In this document: positions 60,546 to 63,333 of the stretch, one piece after another | Layout: each line of letters begins with the position of its first letter | How positions within the stretch are numbered: position 1 is the first letter of the stretch | IMG/VR virus record: IMGVR_UViG_3300048586_000134 | Span: 25,703-89,702 of that record | DNA from: a virus | Lineage: Duplodnaviria > Heunggongvirae > Uroviricota > Caudoviricetes | Reading direction: 5' to 3' (one strand) | DNA length: 64,000 nt | The notes under the pieces: generated by a model | The model's database searches: none | Told to the model about the DNA's origin: nothing | Seen by the model: the letters and a program-made list of their open reading frames with translations, nothing else | Program-made: the position numbers and the translations under genes

Positions 60546-60789
60546 GTCTCTTGCGAGACTCGCATCATTCCCGATGGTAGCTTGCGCTACCGTAGGAAGA
60601 TGGTCCTATCTGTCAACTAGGACCATTGCGCTATTCGATGTCACGTTCTTCTTGTGTACGTTCGCCTTCGTTTCGATAGCCAGAGCCGTTATGTTGGCTA
60701 CCACGAACGTACACTCAGAGCGTCAACACTCCAGAGCGCTAAGTTGTCAATGTGCCCATAGAGTCAGCTAAGCGTCCCTCAGTAGTCCG

Positions 60790-61055
60790 TACTACTCACT
60801 AGCTCGCGCCTCCCCCCCTTACCATAACGGACGCTTACGCGTGGTAGCTATGGCAGACGAGTTACAAACATTCGCGAGTTTCCACGAGTAGTCGTGGCTA
60901 CGTCCCTCAGCAGAGCGGACTATGCGCTATGTCGCATGAAGTCAGATAGGTCAGGCCGTTCAATCAGAGAGTGAGCCATCGATGGTAGTCATGCGTTCGC
61001 GTGTCCGTTTCACCACGCGTTCGGCTTACCGCGACCATCGGTGCACCGTGCTATG
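60790..61055 (-). ncRNA. candidate structured non-coding RNA (promoter-driven, no ORF)
   Basis: A TTGACA-17-TAGTCT promoter at 61061-61089 points into ~270 bp with no ORF of 30 aa or more in any frame. The region is dense in short hairpins (CCACGAGTAGTCGTGG, GTAGTCCGTACTAC, ATGCGCTATGTCGCAT, CACCGATGGTCGCGG). Fold and exact ends were not determined. Confidence 0.25.
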
Positions 61056-61060
61056 TGAGT

Positions 61061-61089
61061 AGACTAGCAGAGAATCAGCGCCGTGTCAA
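61061..61089 (-). promoter_or_regulatory. sigma70-like promoter TTGACA-17-TAGTCT
   Basis: Read on the - strand. Confidence 0.5.
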
Positions 61090-61094
61090 GAGAG

Positions 61095-61250
61095 TCAGGT
61101 AGCGTATGCAACAGAGCCGTAATTTTGCTTTGCGAAACAATCGGGGCGCTTACTTCATTCGGCGTGACGCGACTGTTTCCGTAGCTTGACCGCCGAAGCG
61201 GATTTTGTCTCTCGCCGTTCGGTTTCCCGTTCGGCTTGATGTGACTACTA
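61095..61250 (-). ncRNA. candidate small non-coding RNA with UUCG-tetraloop hairpin
   Basis: Lies downstream of the TTGACA at 61270-61275. It contains CCGC-UUCG-GCGG (plus-strand ccgccgaagcgg ~61191-61202) and repeated CCGAACGG. The only ORF (61064..61291) is low-complexity and starts upstream of the promoter. Confidence 0.2.
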
Positions 61251-61485
61251 TGCCATAGCATGAAACCATTGTCAAGCGGTTTCGCAGTCAATTCTAAAAT
61301 TGTTGCGCAACTTGACTACTACGACTCATACTCGAACGGATGTTCTACTAATCAGGATTGTGAGTGTTTATGTCAAGTTGTCTGATAGTAGAACAAATGT
61401 TCTAATCAGGGGATCATTAGCATGGTAAAGGACTTTACTTGGTAACTAACGATTAGTAAGTATGTATCTCTTGACTGACATTGTT

Positions 61486-61835
61486 TCGCAGCGCGTTGCG
61501 CGTGCGTATGTGCGCGTATGCGTATGCGCGTCTCGCACGCGTGCGCATGCATGCGCGTTGCGCGGTTCCAACGTGACGCGAAAAGCGACTCGTTAGCTAC
61601 GCAAAGCAAAGTTTCCTCGCGTATGCGCGTGCACGCGTGTGAGTGGCAGTTGTTGATATAAAACTCAAGATTAGTAATCTCGCAGCGTGCGTATGCGCGT
61701 GCACTGATTGTCGAGTTCTGGATAAAGAACTCAAGATTAGCAATGTAGATTGTTGACTTGTGGATCAACAACTGGCCGTTAGTTTTCTCGCGTGCGTCAC
61801 GCGTGCACGTATGCGCGTGCGAGGAGCTTAGCTAC
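61486..61835. repeat. four alternating purine-pyrimidine, palindrome-rich GC tracts built on GCGTGCGTATGCGCG (Z-DNA/cruciform-prone)
   Basis: The tracts are interleaved with direct repeats AACTCAAGATTAG[T/C]AAT (x2), GATTAGTAA (x3) and TTAGCTACGCAAAG[C/T]AAA (x2). Tract 61497-61531 is 35 bp of perfect R-Y alternation, then CGCACGCGTGCG and GCATGCATGC. Further copies lie at ~61615-61640, 61685-61704 and 61790-61821. Confidence 0.8.
61759..61767 (-). promoter_or_regulatory. DnaA-box-like 9-mer TGATCCACA (1 mismatch) inside inverted repeat TTGTTGA..TCAACAA
   Basis: Plus-strand tgtggatca. It is flanked by ttgttgacttgtggatcaacaa. Confidence 0.3.
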
Positions 61836-62204
61836 GCAAAGTAAATCGGCCCTATTACTTATCGTTACTAACCCCTAGAATCGCCTGTTTGGTGTCGTTA
61901 TGCGGTCACTAATGGTAGACATCATTTTACGCGTGGAATGCGCTTAGAATCGATTGTAGCGCCTTACAGACGTATCCTAGAATTGACGCCAACACCAAAA
62001 ATGCGGTCTTTTACCACGCTAAATAACAGCGTCACTGTTGTTGACTGCCACATAGGGCATTCTTTACTGTCCGTTACTGTCGTTGCTTTGATTCATAACG
62101 ATAAGTAATATCGATTTTGCCTCTTTTCTGACCCAACAGGATTGTTGACGGCCACTAATGAAACCTAACGCCGTTCGGATAGCCTAACGACGTTCGCTCA
62201 GGCA

Positions 62205-62235
62205 TGCGCGTGCGTGCGCGTGCGCGTGCGTAGCG
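62205..62235. repeat. fifth alternating purine-pyrimidine GC tract (GCATGCGCGTGCGTGCGCGTGCGCGTGCGTA)
   Basis: Read directly. Same family as the 61.5-61.8 kb tracts. Confidence 0.8.
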
Positions 62236-62426
62236 TTCGGTTTGGCGAACGTTGTTCGCTTATCCTAACGTTGTTCGGAGTAGGGTACAGTGTTAGGTAG
62301 AGTGGATTGTTTAGTTCTTTACTACTTACTTTATTTCTGCGCGTAGCTATCATAACGTGCGTCACTTACACAACGTTAGCGACCGAACGTTAGCTATGCT
62401 AAGCAAACTATCGCATCTCTCATTGT

Positions 62427-62435
62427 TGATCCACA
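62427..62435 (+). promoter_or_regulatory. DnaA-box-like 9-mer TGATCCACA (1 mismatch)
   Basis: Lies in ttgttgatccacaac, which is related to the 61759 element in the opposite orientation. Confidence 0.3.
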
Positions 62436-62776
62436 ACTACACAATCGCATTGTTTACGAGTGATAACAAATGAGCGCTAACTATGTACTTGATCGACAAC
62501 TCAACAATCGTTTTTACCGCGAACGTACGCATATAGTTACGAGCCGTTACCCCTCAAATCCGCTTCATTAGCACGGATGTTCTGGGGACGCTAGTGGTCA
62601 AAAAATTCGCACTCCATTTTCCCAAAGGGCAAAAAATATTCAGCCAGGGGACAGTCCAGCAGCCGTTCCAGAGAGGCAAAAATGACCCAAAATGGTCGAG
62701 TTGCGAATTTGACAACTTTTGAGGCTTCTGAGGCCAAAATCTGCGGAAATCTCGGGCTTTTTCGGCTTTTGGAGGG

Positions 62777-62798
62777 TTTTCCACAAAAATGTGGATAA
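62777..62798. promoter_or_regulatory. inverted pair of DnaA boxes TTTTCCACA-AAAA-TGTGGATAA (second is a perfect TTATCCACA consensus)
   Basis: Read directly. Confidence 0.5.
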
Positions 62799-62799
62799 A

Positions 62800-62875
62800 C
62801 TACTGTCATTTTGCGTCGAATCACTGTCGTTTTGTCGAAATCGGGCTGATTTACTGTCATTTAGGACGAAATTGA
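62800..62875. repeat. AT-rich direct repeats ACTGTCATTTTG / ACTGTCGTTTTG / ACTGTCATTTAG (x3), a DUE/iteron-like region between DnaA boxes
   Basis: Read directly. Spacing is ~25 bp. Confidence 0.6.
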
Positions 62876-62884
62876 AGCGCTGGT

Positions 62885-62893
62885 TGTGGATAA
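62885..62893 (-). promoter_or_regulatory. perfect DnaA box TTATCCACA (plus-strand tgtggataa)
   Basis: Read directly. Confidence 0.5.
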
Positions 62894-63039
62894 CGTGCGA
62901 TTCTAAGCAAAAATTGAGTAAGAGAGATGATGGAAGGGCGCTCTACCGCCGCCCCTTCCCTCTCTCGCTTCGCTCGATTCACCCTTCTCTGGCGGTCGTC
63001 CCGACTCTCAAACTCTCGAAGGATTAATGCCTGCGTGTG

Positions 63040-63235
63040 TTTCTAGTTACTGAGAACAAGAACAGTACACCCTACTGAGACTGGAAACCTTTCTCCCTCT
63101 ACTAGATAATATCTAATACTAGAGACAAGAGAACTAGAGACTAAGAGTGTTTACTAGAGACTACGGTAGACACTAGAAACTAGTTGATGTACTGAATATG
63201 TTCTAGATATCTATTAGCCACTAGATAGAGCGAGG
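63040..63235. repeat. CTAG-rich operator-like array: ACTAGAGAC x3 direct repeats plus palindromes TAGATATCTA and TAGATAATATCTA
   Basis: The CTAG tetramer occurs about 11 times in ~200 bp, immediately upstream of the Ro60 promoter. Confidence 0.7.
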
Positions 63236-63250
63236 CGATGTCGCCAAAAT

Positions 63251-63272
63251 CAAGCCTGCCGCATATGATAGT
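63251..63272 (+). promoter_or_regulatory. Ro60 promoter-like motif CAAGCCTGCCGCATATGATAGT (extended -10 TGATAGT)
   Basis: The same core occurs at 36108-36131 on the - strand. An RBS AGGAG lies at 63320-63324. Confidence 0.4.
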
Positions 63273-63333
63273 GCGAGGGGCGAGAAGGTCGTCCACAATT
63301 AGCCCCAAGGGGCCGCAAAAAGGAGACGAAAGA

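What the first reader, a model, noticed from the sequence alone, without database searches (positions are those of the whole stretch)
60550..63333. 2.7-kb protein-free control hub between the leftward gene array and Ro60, with promoter-driven ORF-less transcripts
No credible ORF occupies 60.55-63.33 kb on either strand. The track's 61064..61291, 61406..61771 and 62554-63027 ORFs are low-complexity, overlap repeats, or start upstream of promoters. The region nonetheless has consensus promoters on the - strand at 61061-61089 and at the TTGACA at 61270. These feed ~270 nt and ~150 nt stretches packed with short GC hairpins, including a textbook CCGC-UUCG-GCGG tetraloop, a GGTCCTA..TAGGACC hairpin that encloses a TTGACAG (60594-60625), and 11-bp inverted repeats GTGTACGTTCG/CGAACGTACAC (60656-60714). 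These look like structured non-coding RNAs. Known bacterial and phage Ro60 (Rsr) proteins act with an adjacent Y RNA (YrlA-type, tRNA-like). The Ro60 gene here starts 2.3 kb away, so one of these transcripts, or an unrecognised one on the + strand at 62.5-63.0 kb, is a candidate Y-RNA partner. I could not confirm a canonical Ro-binding helix or tRNA-like T-arm by eye, so this remains an inference.
Basis: partly seen in the sequence, partly recalled or inferred. Interest (0 to 1): 0.85.

Follow-up and report, generated by a model that had tools for sequence, protein, structure and literature searches.

The report
Non-coding phage control region, no Y-RNA
A 2.8-kb gene-free stretch next to the Ro60 gene of an uncultured phage is real and full of promoters and DNA repeats, as in a replication-origin or control region, but it lacks the Y RNA partner found beside Ro60 in nearly all relatives checked.

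Summary
The gene-free stretch is real. Window 60461-63333 holds no credible ORF and is four times longer than any other gap. The two minus-strand promoters are real members of a family of about 40 leftward TTGACA-N17-TAnnnT promoters. Unlike the others, they have no ribosome-binding site or ORF behind them.

The Y-RNA reading fails. Rfam and ARAGORN find nothing. I built three covariance models from Y RNAs next to this Ro60's relatives. They detect Y RNAs in 10 of 11 distinct phage loci and give 307 hits across 73 bacterial loci; every listed hit (the top 300) is upstream of rsr on its strand. In the whole 64-kb window they find nothing (best E 0.13-0.85, inside genes). The two promoter-fed transcripts fold no better than shuffled sequence (z -0.5 and -0.3). 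They also lie on the strand opposite Ro60.

The right-hand 2 kb is the most repeat-dense DNA in the window:
- five 18-bp palindromes
- GC purine/pyrimidine tracts
- nested inverted repeats
- a DnaA-box cluster
- A-tracts
- ACTAGAGAC repeats

This most likely marks a divergent early-promoter and origin-type DNA control region. A Y RNA may lie downstream of rsr, beyond the window.

The parts
60517..60545 (-). Promoter P60545 (TTGACA-17-TACACT, TG-extended) of the last canonical early cassette. Its gene is about 60288-60460, with an AGGAG ribosome-binding site. This promoter marks the left edge of the ORF-free stretch.
   Evidence: matrix score 31.2
60552..60624 (-). Three consecutive perfect palindromes or hairpins just upstream of P60545: TGCGAGaCTCGCA (60552-60564), GGTAGC-TTGC-GCTACC (60576-60591) and GGTCCTA-N9-TAGGACC (60602-60624). 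The last one encloses a TTGACA.
   Evidence: sequence; 120-nt window 60520-60639, z -9.7 on the minus strand and -4.0 on the plus strand; z -3.0
60654..60714 (-). Long stem-loop or cruciform. The 11-bp arms GTGTACGTTCG / CGAACGTACAC enclose a second 8-bp inverted repeat. No U-run follows it.
   Evidence: z -4.73; 0 of 200 shuffles fold as well
61061..61089 (-). Orphan early-type promoter P61089 (TTGACA-17-TAGTCT). It has a degenerate leader, no ribosome-binding site, and only a 10-codon ORF downstream.
   Evidence: 15.5 bits; training minimum 13.9
60780..61054 (-). Putative transcript from P61089. It contains a 63-nt hairpin (60978-61040) that carries GCCGAACG. This is the best Y-model match in the region, but it is at noise level.
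   Evidence: z -0.31; R3 10.2 bits, E 2.8; z -1.06
61247..61275 (-). Orphan early-type promoter P61275 (TTGACA-17-CATAGT, TG-extended). No ribosome-binding site or ORF lies downstream.
   Evidence: 25.4 bits
61090..61240 (-). Putative transcript from P61275, containing the CCGC-UUCG-GCGG hairpin (61190-61201). It is no more structured than chance.
   Evidence: z -0.52
61275..61500 (.). The most AT-rich part of the region (GC 0.38-0.39), with the inverted repeat GAACGGATGTTCTACTA / TAGTAGAACAAATGTTC (61334-61402).
61490..62232 (.). Five clusters of alternating purine/pyrimidine GC tracts (GCGTATGCGCGTGCAC type) at about 61490-61560, 61616-61643, 61682-61704, 61789-61822 and 62196-62232. Copies of CGTTAGCTACGCAAAGCAAA lie among and near them (61591, 61826, 62388; inverted at 62334).
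   Evidence: The only Rfam E-value hits here are spurious miRNA matches.
61648..62501 (.). Five 18-bp palindromic sites (consensus AGTTGTTGATnnAnAACT, with a DnaA-box-like core TGATCCACA) at 61648, 61714, 61756, 62421 and 62484. They form two clusters in inverted arrangement. The clusters flank nested inverted repeats (61853-61867 / 62096-62110 and 62164-62197 / 62245-62278).
   Evidence: each site matches on both strands; 10 of 16 window matches fall here, against 1.66 expected window-wide
62777..62893 (.). DnaA-box cluster within an A-tract-rich stretch. A convergent pair TTTTCCACA-aaaa-TGTGGATAA lies at 62777-62798 and a third perfect box at 62885-62893. Three ACTGTC(A/G)TTT repeats fall at 62803-62863.
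   Evidence: 3 of the 6 consensus boxes in the window, binomial p 3.5e-4
63039..63182 (.). CTAG-rich repeat array. ACTAGAGAC occurs three times perfectly, with two 1-mismatch copies (one inverted). The motif occurs nowhere else in the window.
63241..63269 (+). Weak sigma-70-like site (TCGCCA-17-TATGAT) upstream of Ro60. It is not of the early-promoter class.
   Evidence: 9 of 12 matches; only one plus-strand site in the whole window reaches the matrix threshold, and none lies in this region
63334..64000 (+). 5' part of the Ro60/TROVE gene (222 codons visible), with ribosome-binding site AAAGGAGAC.
   Evidence: TROVE, 1.3e-18

Best explanation
Window 60546-63333 is the non-coding divergence point between the phage's leftward early/replication arm and its rightward arm, which begins with Ro60. 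It works mainly as DNA, not as a Y-RNA locus.

The left 0.75 kb carries the outermost members of a family of about 40 strong host-type promoters. P61275 and P61089 lack the usual leader hairpin, ribosome-binding site and ORF. They most likely act as extra tandem promoters, or as remnants of lost cassettes. I infer that their transcripts run on into the first early genes, because no convincing terminator intervenes.

The right 2 kb is a scaffold of repeated protein-binding-type sites: 18-bp palindromes, GC purine/pyrimidine tracts, nested inverted repeats, paired DnaA boxes, A-tracts and ACTAGAGAC repeats. Its most likely role is the replication origin together with regulatory sites for the divergent arms.

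Shown: the absence of genes, the promoter family, the repeat families, and the absence of canonical Y RNA or tRNA.
Inferred: read-through from the orphan promoters, and origin function.
For: No coding potential.

Promoters:
- 40 TTGACA-N17-TANNNT sites, all on the - strand, against 0.32 expected.
- Only 60545, 61089 and 61275 fall in the region, and none is on the + strand there.
- Most canonical cassettes nearest the region carry a leader hairpin, an AAGGGAGAAC-type ribosome-binding site and an ATG about 50-60 nt after the -10. The two orphans do not.
- Only one weak terminator-like site (60887-60872) lies between P61275 and the first gene.

Repeats:
- 81 repeated 10-mers in 61280-63340, against 6.1 +/- 3.1 in shuffles and at most 56 in any other 2-kb window.
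- Five region-specific palindromic 18-mers.
- DnaA consensus boxes clustered, p 3.5e-4.
- ACTAGAGAC occurs only here.
- AT-rich patches with GC 0.37-0.40.
- The cumulative GC-skew minimum is at about 60-61 kb.

No Y RNA or tRNA, with strong positive controls.

Outside three palindrome-bearing spots, folding is at chance level on both strands.
Against: - No related genome could be found, so the repeats have no conservation evidence. There is no DNA match in INPHARED, PolA is at most 32% identical to any deposited phage, and the source contig could not be retrieved.
- The GC-skew switch is equally explained by the change in transcription direction.
- The host is unknown, so the relevance of the E. 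coli/Bacillus-type DnaA box is assumed.
- No initiator gene lies next to the region.
- The orphan transcripts contain three GNCGAAN0-1G motifs where about 0.3 are expected (expectation is my arithmetic). The 10-mer AAGCCGAACG occurs only twice in the window, both times in these transcripts. This is the kind of motif a Y RNA would carry.
Confidence: 0.55

Rival explanations
1. The orphan-promoter transcripts, or another RNA from this stretch, are non-canonical Y-like RNAs that bind the phage Ro60.
For: - Ro60 sits 2.1-2.3 kb away.
- The two promoters have no ORF.
- GCCGAACG / GCCGAATG, which fit the GNCGAAN0-1G motif of PMC4201824, occur three times in about 340 nt of these transcripts.
- AAGCCGAACG occurs only in them.
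- The second-best R3 hit in the whole window (10.2 bits) is a stem-internal-loop-stem at 60983-61032(-), about 20 nt downstream of the inferred P61089 start.
- In bacterial relatives the 2.5 kb upstream of rsr is filled with tandem Y RNAs, so the location is the expected one.
Against: - The transcripts are on the wrong strand. Every listed hit in the control loci, and the sets in the literature, are on the rsr strand (PMC4201824).
- Model scores are at noise (E 2.8-3.7 in the region), while real phage Y RNAs score 20-73 bits.
- There is no T-arm or tRNA-like module.
- Folding is no better than shuffles (z -0.5, -0.3, -1.06).
- CGAACG-type motifs are enriched on both strands across the region (13 copies, p 1.8e-4). 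That pattern fits a DNA repeat better than an RNA motif.
Confidence: 0.1
2. The stretch is a cis-acting element at or near a genome end: a terminal-repeat boundary, a packaging site, or a T5-type injection-stop region. It sits beside the early host-takeover genes and is not an origin.
For: The architecture parallels the T5 iss region. [quoted passage not shown] Here a 2.8-kb untranslated repeat region with paired DnaA boxes adjoins a dense array of small genes, most with their own promoter.
Against: - No sequence similarity to T5-like or any other deposited phage.
- Only 3 consensus boxes, not 8 in four pairs.
- Genome ends and terminal repeats cannot be seen from a 64-kb window.
- Tail and lysin genes (Prophage_tail, Amidase_2) suggest, to my reading, a Gram-positive-type siphovirus unrelated to T5.
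Confidence: 0.15
3. The left part is only the wreckage of early cassettes that lost their ORFs. The right part is fast-evolving filler with no specific function.
For: - P61089 keeps a degenerate version of the canonical leader (GCACGGT..CGATGG) and a 10-codon ORF with no ribosome-binding site.
- A strong AAGGGGGGGAGG sequence at about 60810-60821(-) is followed by only a 6-codon ORF.
- GAGGGACG leader-like motifs occur at 60773-60807 and 60901-60935.
Against: - Phage genomes are compact. The next largest gap is 654 bp.
- tblastx finds no decayed coding remnant.
- The right part has several region-specific, well-preserved repeat families, including perfect 15-16-nt copies. Neutral decay would erode these.
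Confidence: 0.1

Closest known systems
Bacterial and phage Y RNAs (YrlA/YrlB; Chen et al. 2014, PMC4201824; Thermus phage phiLo Yrl1/Yrl2, PMC12135203)
   Same: The stretch lies next to a Ro60/TROVE gene, within the 4-kb neighbourhood where Y RNAs are normally found. A few GNCGAAN0-1G motif instances are present.
   Different: There is no stem-bulge-stem with the conserved GGGCCGAAG...GGGUUAUC...CUUGYCC signature, no T-arm, and no significant model hit. The promoter-driven transcripts are on the opposite strand. In relatives the Y RNAs lie on the rsr strand, usually 50-1300 nt upstream of the start codon.
Phage T5 untranslated repeat region 3 / injection stop signal (bioRxiv 10.1101/866236)
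   Same: [quoted passage not shown] It sits beside early genes driven by strong host-type promoters.
   Different: No sequence homology. It has fewer DnaA boxes in a different arrangement. Its position relative to terminal repeats is unknown, and the phage lineage is unrelated.
Iteron and DnaA-box replication origins of phages and plasmids (lambda ori, SPP1 oriL, plasmid oriV). Named from general knowledge.
   Same: Clusters of repeated binding sites in direct and inverted orientation, adjacent AT-rich DNA, A-tracts, DnaA boxes, and a location at a switch of strand composition.
   Different: No initiator gene overlaps or adjoins it. Origin activity is untested, and the skew switch is confounded by transcription polarity.
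Tandem early promoters of T7 (A1-A3) and the promoter-dense host-takeover module of SPO1. Named from general knowledge.
   Same: Several strong host-RNA-polymerase promoters point the same way at the outer edge of the early region. Small early genes each have their own promoter.
   Different: Here the two outermost promoters are separated from the first gene by 0.5-0.8 kb of ORF-free leader.

Membership tests
Y RNA (YrlA/YrlB type) | Encoded within about 4 kb of rsr, on the same strand (PMC4201824) | tested here: not met
   The only promoter-driven ORF-less transcripts are on the - strand and Ro60 is on the + strand. All listed control hits are on the rsr strand.
Y RNA (YrlA/YrlB type) | A stem formed by the 5' and 3' ends, with GNCGAAN0-1G in the 5' strand of a bulged helix (the Ro60-binding site) | tested here: not met
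   Models R1, R2 and R3 with filters off give in-region bests of 8.9 bits (E 5.8), 8.9 bits (E 3.7) and 10.2 bits (E 2.8). Motif instances exist but not in a Y-type helix. The pattern CCGAAG..GKTTAT matches 58 of 88 control loci; its only match in the window lies inside an ORF.
Y RNA (YrlA/YrlB type) | tRNA-like module (T-arm and D-arm) in at least one Y RNA per locus | tested here: not met
   ARAGORN finds 0 genes in the window. Rfam tRNA and all other families give no hit at gathering or at E<=10. R2 and R3 give no hit.
Y RNA (YrlA/YrlB type) | Physical binding to Ro60 | not testable with these tools
   Needs RIP or EMSA.
Iteron / DnaA-box replication origin | Cluster of DnaA boxes | tested here: met
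   3 of the 6 TTWTNCACA boxes in the window lie in 62777-62893 (p 3.5e-4). 5 of 9 relaxed boxes lie in 61759-62893 (p 1.5e-6).
Iteron / DnaA-box replication origin | Three or more repeated binding sites of about 18-22 bp (iterons) | tested here: met
   Five palindromic 18-mers occur only here. There are also three ACTGTCNTTT repeats and five ACTAGAGAC-type repeats.
Iteron / DnaA-box replication origin | Adjacent AT-rich unwinding element | tested here: inconclusive
   GC falls to 0.37-0.40 in 61275-61500, 62775-62924 and 63075-63224, against about 0.52 genome-wide. No defined 13-mer-type element was recognised.
Iteron / DnaA-box replication origin | Replication actually starts here | not testable with these tools
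   The cumulative GC-skew minimum at about 60-61 kb is confounded by the switch in gene orientation.
T5-type injection-stop / untranslated terminal-repeat region | [quoted passage not shown] | tested here: met
   2788 bp with 297 stop codons across six frames. Repeat density is the highest in the window. It adjoins the promoter-dense array of small genes.
T5-type injection-stop / untranslated terminal-repeat region | Eight DnaA boxes in four pairs, placed within paired inverted repeats | tested here: not met
   There is one convergent pair 4 bp apart, one single consensus box, and two relaxed boxes inside inverted palindromes.
T5-type injection-stop / untranslated terminal-repeat region | Location inside a long terminal repeat; homology to T5-like phages | tested here: inconclusive
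   The homology half was tested and not met: there is no DNA similarity to any deposited phage. The location half could not be tested, because genome ends cannot be seen from the window.

The most novel reading that the evidence does not exclude
This phage's Ro60 has lost the canonical Y RNA. It instead partners with a new kind of RNA made from this stretch, for example the ORF-less transcripts of P61275 and P61089. Each carries AAGCCGAACG (which fits GNCGAAN0-1G) near its 5' end, and both are encoded on the strand opposite rsr.
Probability: 0.07. Interest if true: 0.8.

Novelty: new member of a known kind. Interest (0 to 1): 0.3.

Why it matters
The attractive reading was a new phage Y RNA hub, and it does not hold. 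That saves follow-up effort and narrows the question. This Ro60 gene is unusual because nothing Y-like lies upstream of it, where 10 of 11 comparable phage loci and the bacterial relatives examined carry one or more Y RNAs. If the full contig also lacks a Y RNA downstream of rsr, it would be a rare Ro60 without a recognisable partner. That would be a useful test case for how far Ro60 depends on Y RNA.

Separately, the region is a clean candidate origin and control region for a deeply divergent phage of about 128 kb. It comes with a well-defined family of about 40 early promoters. That makes the phage's transcription programme and replication start directly testable.

The three covariance models built here also outperform Rfam on bacterial and phage Y RNAs.

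Tried and rejected
- Rfam at gathering over the whole window, and at E<=10 over 60-64 kb. The only hits were spurious miRNA matches on the GCGTGC repeats.
- ARAGORN found nothing.
- Rfam proved insensitive for bacterial Y RNAs. In 12 control loci only two hits appeared, both to the nematode sbRNA model RF01656. I therefore built custom models.
- Comparative analysis of the region itself was impossible. There is no megablast or blastn match in INPHARED. Ro60 relatives are at most 55% identical in viral, metagenome and genome collections. A neighbouring early protein has no close relative apart from its own record. PolA is at most 32% identical to any deposited phage.
- The source contig (127,895 bp according to P0001) could not be retrieved. 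The region downstream of rsr stays unseen.
- The pseudogene idea was tested by tblastx and blastn of the region against the rest of the window. Only the shared promoter leader matched.
- Hidden small genes were sought by a ribosome-binding-site-plus-start scan. Nothing credible appeared.
- A plus-strand promoter of the early class feeding a Y RNA was sought with a position matrix. None exists in the region, and only one site in the whole window reaches the threshold.
- The 63040-63215 stretch, flanked by a 12-bp interrupted inverted repeat, was considered as a Y-like stem. It was rejected because it has no upstream promoter, no CGAA motif and no model hit, and it is built from CTAG DNA repeats.

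
Full report
**Context.** The window is part of an uncultured phage genome with GC about 0.52.
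- Positions 1-5.6 kb encode tail and lysin genes on the + strand.
- Positions 5.7-60.46 kb are one long leftward arm. It holds a class II ribonucleotide reductase, an AEP primase, family A DNA polymerase, DnaB, NAMPT, and then dozens of small genes.
- At 63334 a TROVE/Ro60 gene starts on the + strand (Pfam 1.3e-18).
- A protein identical to one encoded here comes from a 127,895-bp JGI contig. That contig could not be fetched.
- Nothing in the deposited phage collection resembles the region or the phage.

**Is the stretch really gene-free?** Yes.
- I trained a codon-usage log-odds score on 83 long ORFs. It gives true genes a mean of 0.258 bits per codon (5th percentile 0.07) and overlapping spurious ORFs a mean of -0.097 (95th percentile 0.147).
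- Every ORF of 30 aa or more inside 60546-63333 scores between -0.40 and 0.138.
- None has a Pfam or PHROG match.
- No ribosome-binding site plus start codon opens an ORF of 10 codons or more, except inside the low-complexity GCGTGC-repeat ORF.
- tblastx against the rest of the window finds no decayed paralogue.
- The stretch carries 297 stop codons over six frames.
- A crude gene call leaves a 2984-bp gap here, against 654 bp for the next largest.

**Are the promoters real?** Yes, and they belong to a striking family.
- TTGACA-N17-TANNNT occurs 40 times in the window. All copies are on the - strand, between 27.0 and 61.1 kb, where chance predicts 0.32.
- Between about 52 and 60 kb most promoters share one layout: an extended -10 (TGnTAnAGT), a leader hairpin of about 30 nt that often has a GAGGGAC loop, an AAGGGAGAAC-type ribosome-binding site, and an ATG about 50-60 nt after the -10.
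- A position matrix built from the 40 sites (one of them is the 61089 site itself) finds three sites in the region: 60545 (31.2 bits, a canonical cassette), 61275 (25.4) and 61089 (15.5). It finds none there on the + strand, and only one plus-strand site in the whole window reaches the threshold.
- P61275 and P61089 lack the ribosome-binding site and the ORF.
- Only one weak terminator-like site (60887-60872) lies between them and the first gene. Read-through into the early genes, as with tandem early promoters in other phages, is the simplest expectation. This step is inferred, not shown.

**Are these transcripts structured RNAs?** Not detectably.
- 61090-61240(-) folds with z -0.52 and 60780-61054(-) with z -0.31 against dinucleotide shuffles.
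- A 120-nt sliding scan of both strands reaches z < -3 at only three places. These are 60460-60640 (palindromes around and upstream of P60545), 61180-61480 (an inverted repeat in AT-rich DNA) and 62200-62320 (34-nt inverted arms).
- The GGTCCTA hairpin (z -3.0) and the 11-bp-arm stem-loop (z -4.7) are real. They sit in 60550-60780, not in the promoter-proximal stretches.
- As perfect Watson-Crick palindromes, they are equally readable as DNA operator or cruciform sites.

**Is a Y RNA here?** This was the core claim, and I tested it with positive controls.
- Rfam and ARAGORN are negative. Rfam is also nearly blind to bacterial Y RNAs: in 12 control loci it gave only two hits, both to a nematode sbRNA model.
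- Reading those hits showed a conserved signature, GGGCCGAAG...GGGUUAUC...CAACUUGYCCGC or ...CCCUUGCCC, immediately upstream of rsr. A pattern for it matches 58 of 88 fetched loci, almost always just upstream of rsr.
- From these I built three models: R1 (short, YrlB-like; 31 sequences), R2 (tRNA-like, YrlA-type; 32 sequences) and R3 (39 sequences, including phage copies).
- The models recover Y RNAs next to Ro60 in Gordonia phage Cashline (47 bits), Mycobacterium phages Sparky (31) and Sebata (37), Microbacterium phage SM23 (45), Gordonia phage Mareelih (37) and five distinct IMG/VR phage contigs (L001 and L002 are duplicates of one sequence). Only the jumbo phage Phosso has none.
- In 73 bacterial genome loci, mostly Verrucomicrobiota, R3 gives 307 hits. 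Every listed one (the top 300) is on the rsr strand and upstream of the gene, often as arrays of 5-10 copies.
- This agrees with the literature. Y RNAs lie within 4 kb of rsr on the same strand and carry GNCGAAN0-1G (PMC4201824). The Thermus phage phiLo Yrl1 and Yrl2 lie upstream of its Ro60 (PMC12135203).
- Against this background, the whole 64-kb window was searched on both strands with filters off. The best hits were E 0.13 (R1, 35046-35083, inside a gene), E 0.85 (R2) and E 0.34 (R3); the last two fall in the reductase gene.
- Within the region the best hits are 62919-62970(+) at 8.9 bits and 60983-61032(-) at 10.2 bits (E 3.7 and 2.8).

**The residual hint.**
- The 10.2-bit hit is a 63-nt hairpin about 20 nt downstream of the inferred P61089 start. 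It carries GCCGAACG in its 5' strand.
- The 10-mer AAGCCGAACG occurs only twice in the window, once in each orphan transcript.
- Three GNCGAAN0-1G motifs fall in about 340 nt, where I estimate about 0.3 from the window-wide frequency.
- I do not dismiss this, but several points weigh against it:
  - The hairpin's stability is ordinary (z -1.06).
  - The strand is wrong for a Y RNA.
  - Real phage Y RNAs score 20-73 bits.
  - CGAACG-type motifs are enriched on both strands across the whole region (13 copies, p 1.8e-4), which points to a DNA repeat.
- I give the non-canonical-Y-RNA reading about 0.1.

**What the right-hand 2 kb looks like.**
- Positions 61280-63340 hold 81 repeated 10-mers, against 6.1 +/- 3.1 in shuffles and at most 56 in any other 2-kb window.
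- The repeat families are specific to the region:
  - five 18-bp palindromes (AGTTGTTGATnnAnAACT, core TGATCCACA) in two inverted clusters at 61648-61773 and 62421-62501;
  - five clusters of alternating purine/pyrimidine GC tracts, including two perfect 16-mers;
  - CGTTAGCTACGCAAAGCAAA copies in both orientations;
  - nested inverted repeats, including a perfect 15-mer pair at 61853 / 62096 and 34-nt arms at 62164 / 62245;
  - an A-tract-rich stretch with a convergent DnaA-box pair (TTTTCCACAaaaaTGTGGATAA, 62777-62798), a third perfect box at 62885, and three ACTGTCNTTT repeats;
  - ACTAGAGAC repeats at 63039-63182, upstream of a weak promoter-like site for Ro60.
- GC falls to 0.37-0.40 in three patches.
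- The cumulative GC skew turns at about 60-61 kb, although the change of gene orientation explains that too.
- Together this is the anatomy of a DNA-level cis-acting region bound by several proteins.
- An origin of replication combined with regulatory sites is my best reading (about 0.55 for the compound statement, less for 'origin' alone).
- The closest documented look-alike is the T5 untranslated iss repeat region, which has DnaA boxes and lies beside the pre-early genes (bioRxiv 10.1101/866236). There is no homology to it, and the defining eight-box arrangement is not met.

**Verdict.**
- The claim of unusual RNA structure holds only for 60550-60780.
- The Y-RNA interpretation is not supported by tests that work on every comparable locus but one.
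- The Y RNA may lie downstream of rsr beyond the window, as in phage Mareelih, or it may be absent.
- The region is an ordinary kind of thing, a phage control or origin region, in an extraordinary, unrelated phage.
- Interest is modest (0.3). The main open point is whether this Ro60 has any Y RNA at all.

Noticed in passing
window 27013-61275, minus strand: About 40 near-consensus host-type promoters (TTGACA-N17-TAnnnT, mostly with an extended -10 TG) all point left, against 0.32 expected by chance. From about 44 kb onward nearly every small gene has its own promoter. This resembles the early or host-takeover modules of T5 and SPO1.
   Followed up: partly
window 58161-58197, 58779-58815, and other leaders between about 52 and 60 kb: Many early-gene leaders form a 9-12-bp hairpin whose loop reads GAGGGAC or GTCGAGGGAC, which looks like a ribosome-binding site. 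The real site (AAGGGAGAAC) follows directly after. This could be a shared translational or stability element. Degenerate copies occur in the ORF-free stretch (60773-60807, 60901-60935).
   Followed up: partly
window 60207-60270 and 60484-60547: Promoters P60268 and P60545 are each embedded in a palindrome of about 27 nt centred on the -10. They share the leader GAGAGTGATGGTCAC (77% identity over 64 nt). These may be operator sites or a shared 5' RNA hairpin.
   Followed up: no
L093-L166 (Verrucomicrobiota and other MAGs), 2.5 kb upstream of rsr: The bacterial relatives of this Ro60 carry tandem arrays of up to about 10 Y RNAs, both tRNA-like and short types, filling the 2.5 kb upstream of rsr. 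There are 307 hits in 73 loci, and every listed one is on the rsr strand.
   Followed up: partly
L090 2681-2975 (Microbacterium phage SM23); L092 2513-2861 (Mycobacterium phage Sebata): Deposited annotations appear to cover Y RNAs with other features. In SM23 these are a 'tRNA-Asn' (2683-2749) and a hypothetical CDS (2823-2972). In Sebata it is hypothetical gene 234 (2546-2707). All overlap strong Y-RNA model hits.
   Followed up: no
L089 (Sinorhizobium jumbo phage Phosso): This Ro60 gene sits between tail sheath and tail tube genes. It has no detectable Y RNA within 3 kb on either side (best E 0.98). It is the one phage control without a partner.
   Followed up: no
L091 5314-5949 (Gordonia phage Mareelih): Here the clear Y-RNA hits lie 0.8-1.4 kb downstream of Ro60, interleaved with tRNA genes and a tmRNA. 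Phage Y RNAs are therefore not always upstream.
   Followed up: partly
L008 9782-9860; L014 3589-3659: The only Rfam family that reached its gathering score on these prokaryotic Y RNAs was RF01656, the nematode stem-bulge RNA (ceN72-3_ceN74-2). In the 12 control loci no other Rfam family reached gathering on the Y RNAs.
   Followed up: no
L005 5832-5953: A 122-nt tRNA-like gene lies directly upstream of a phage Ro60. Its anticodon arm is replaced by a long insert containing CCGGUUAUC. It may be a permuted or chimeric tRNA/Y-RNA form.
   Followed up: no
window about 60810-60821, minus strand: A very strong AAGGGGGGGAGG ribosome-binding-site-like run is followed 9 nt later by a GTG ORF of only six codons (VSSTDY). 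It could be a relic of a lost gene or a mini-ORF.
   Followed up: no
whole window: GGTTATC occurs 15 times against 4.0 +/- 1.9 expected, 12 of them on the minus (coding) strand. This is probably a codon-pair effect and not RNA-related.
   Followed up: no
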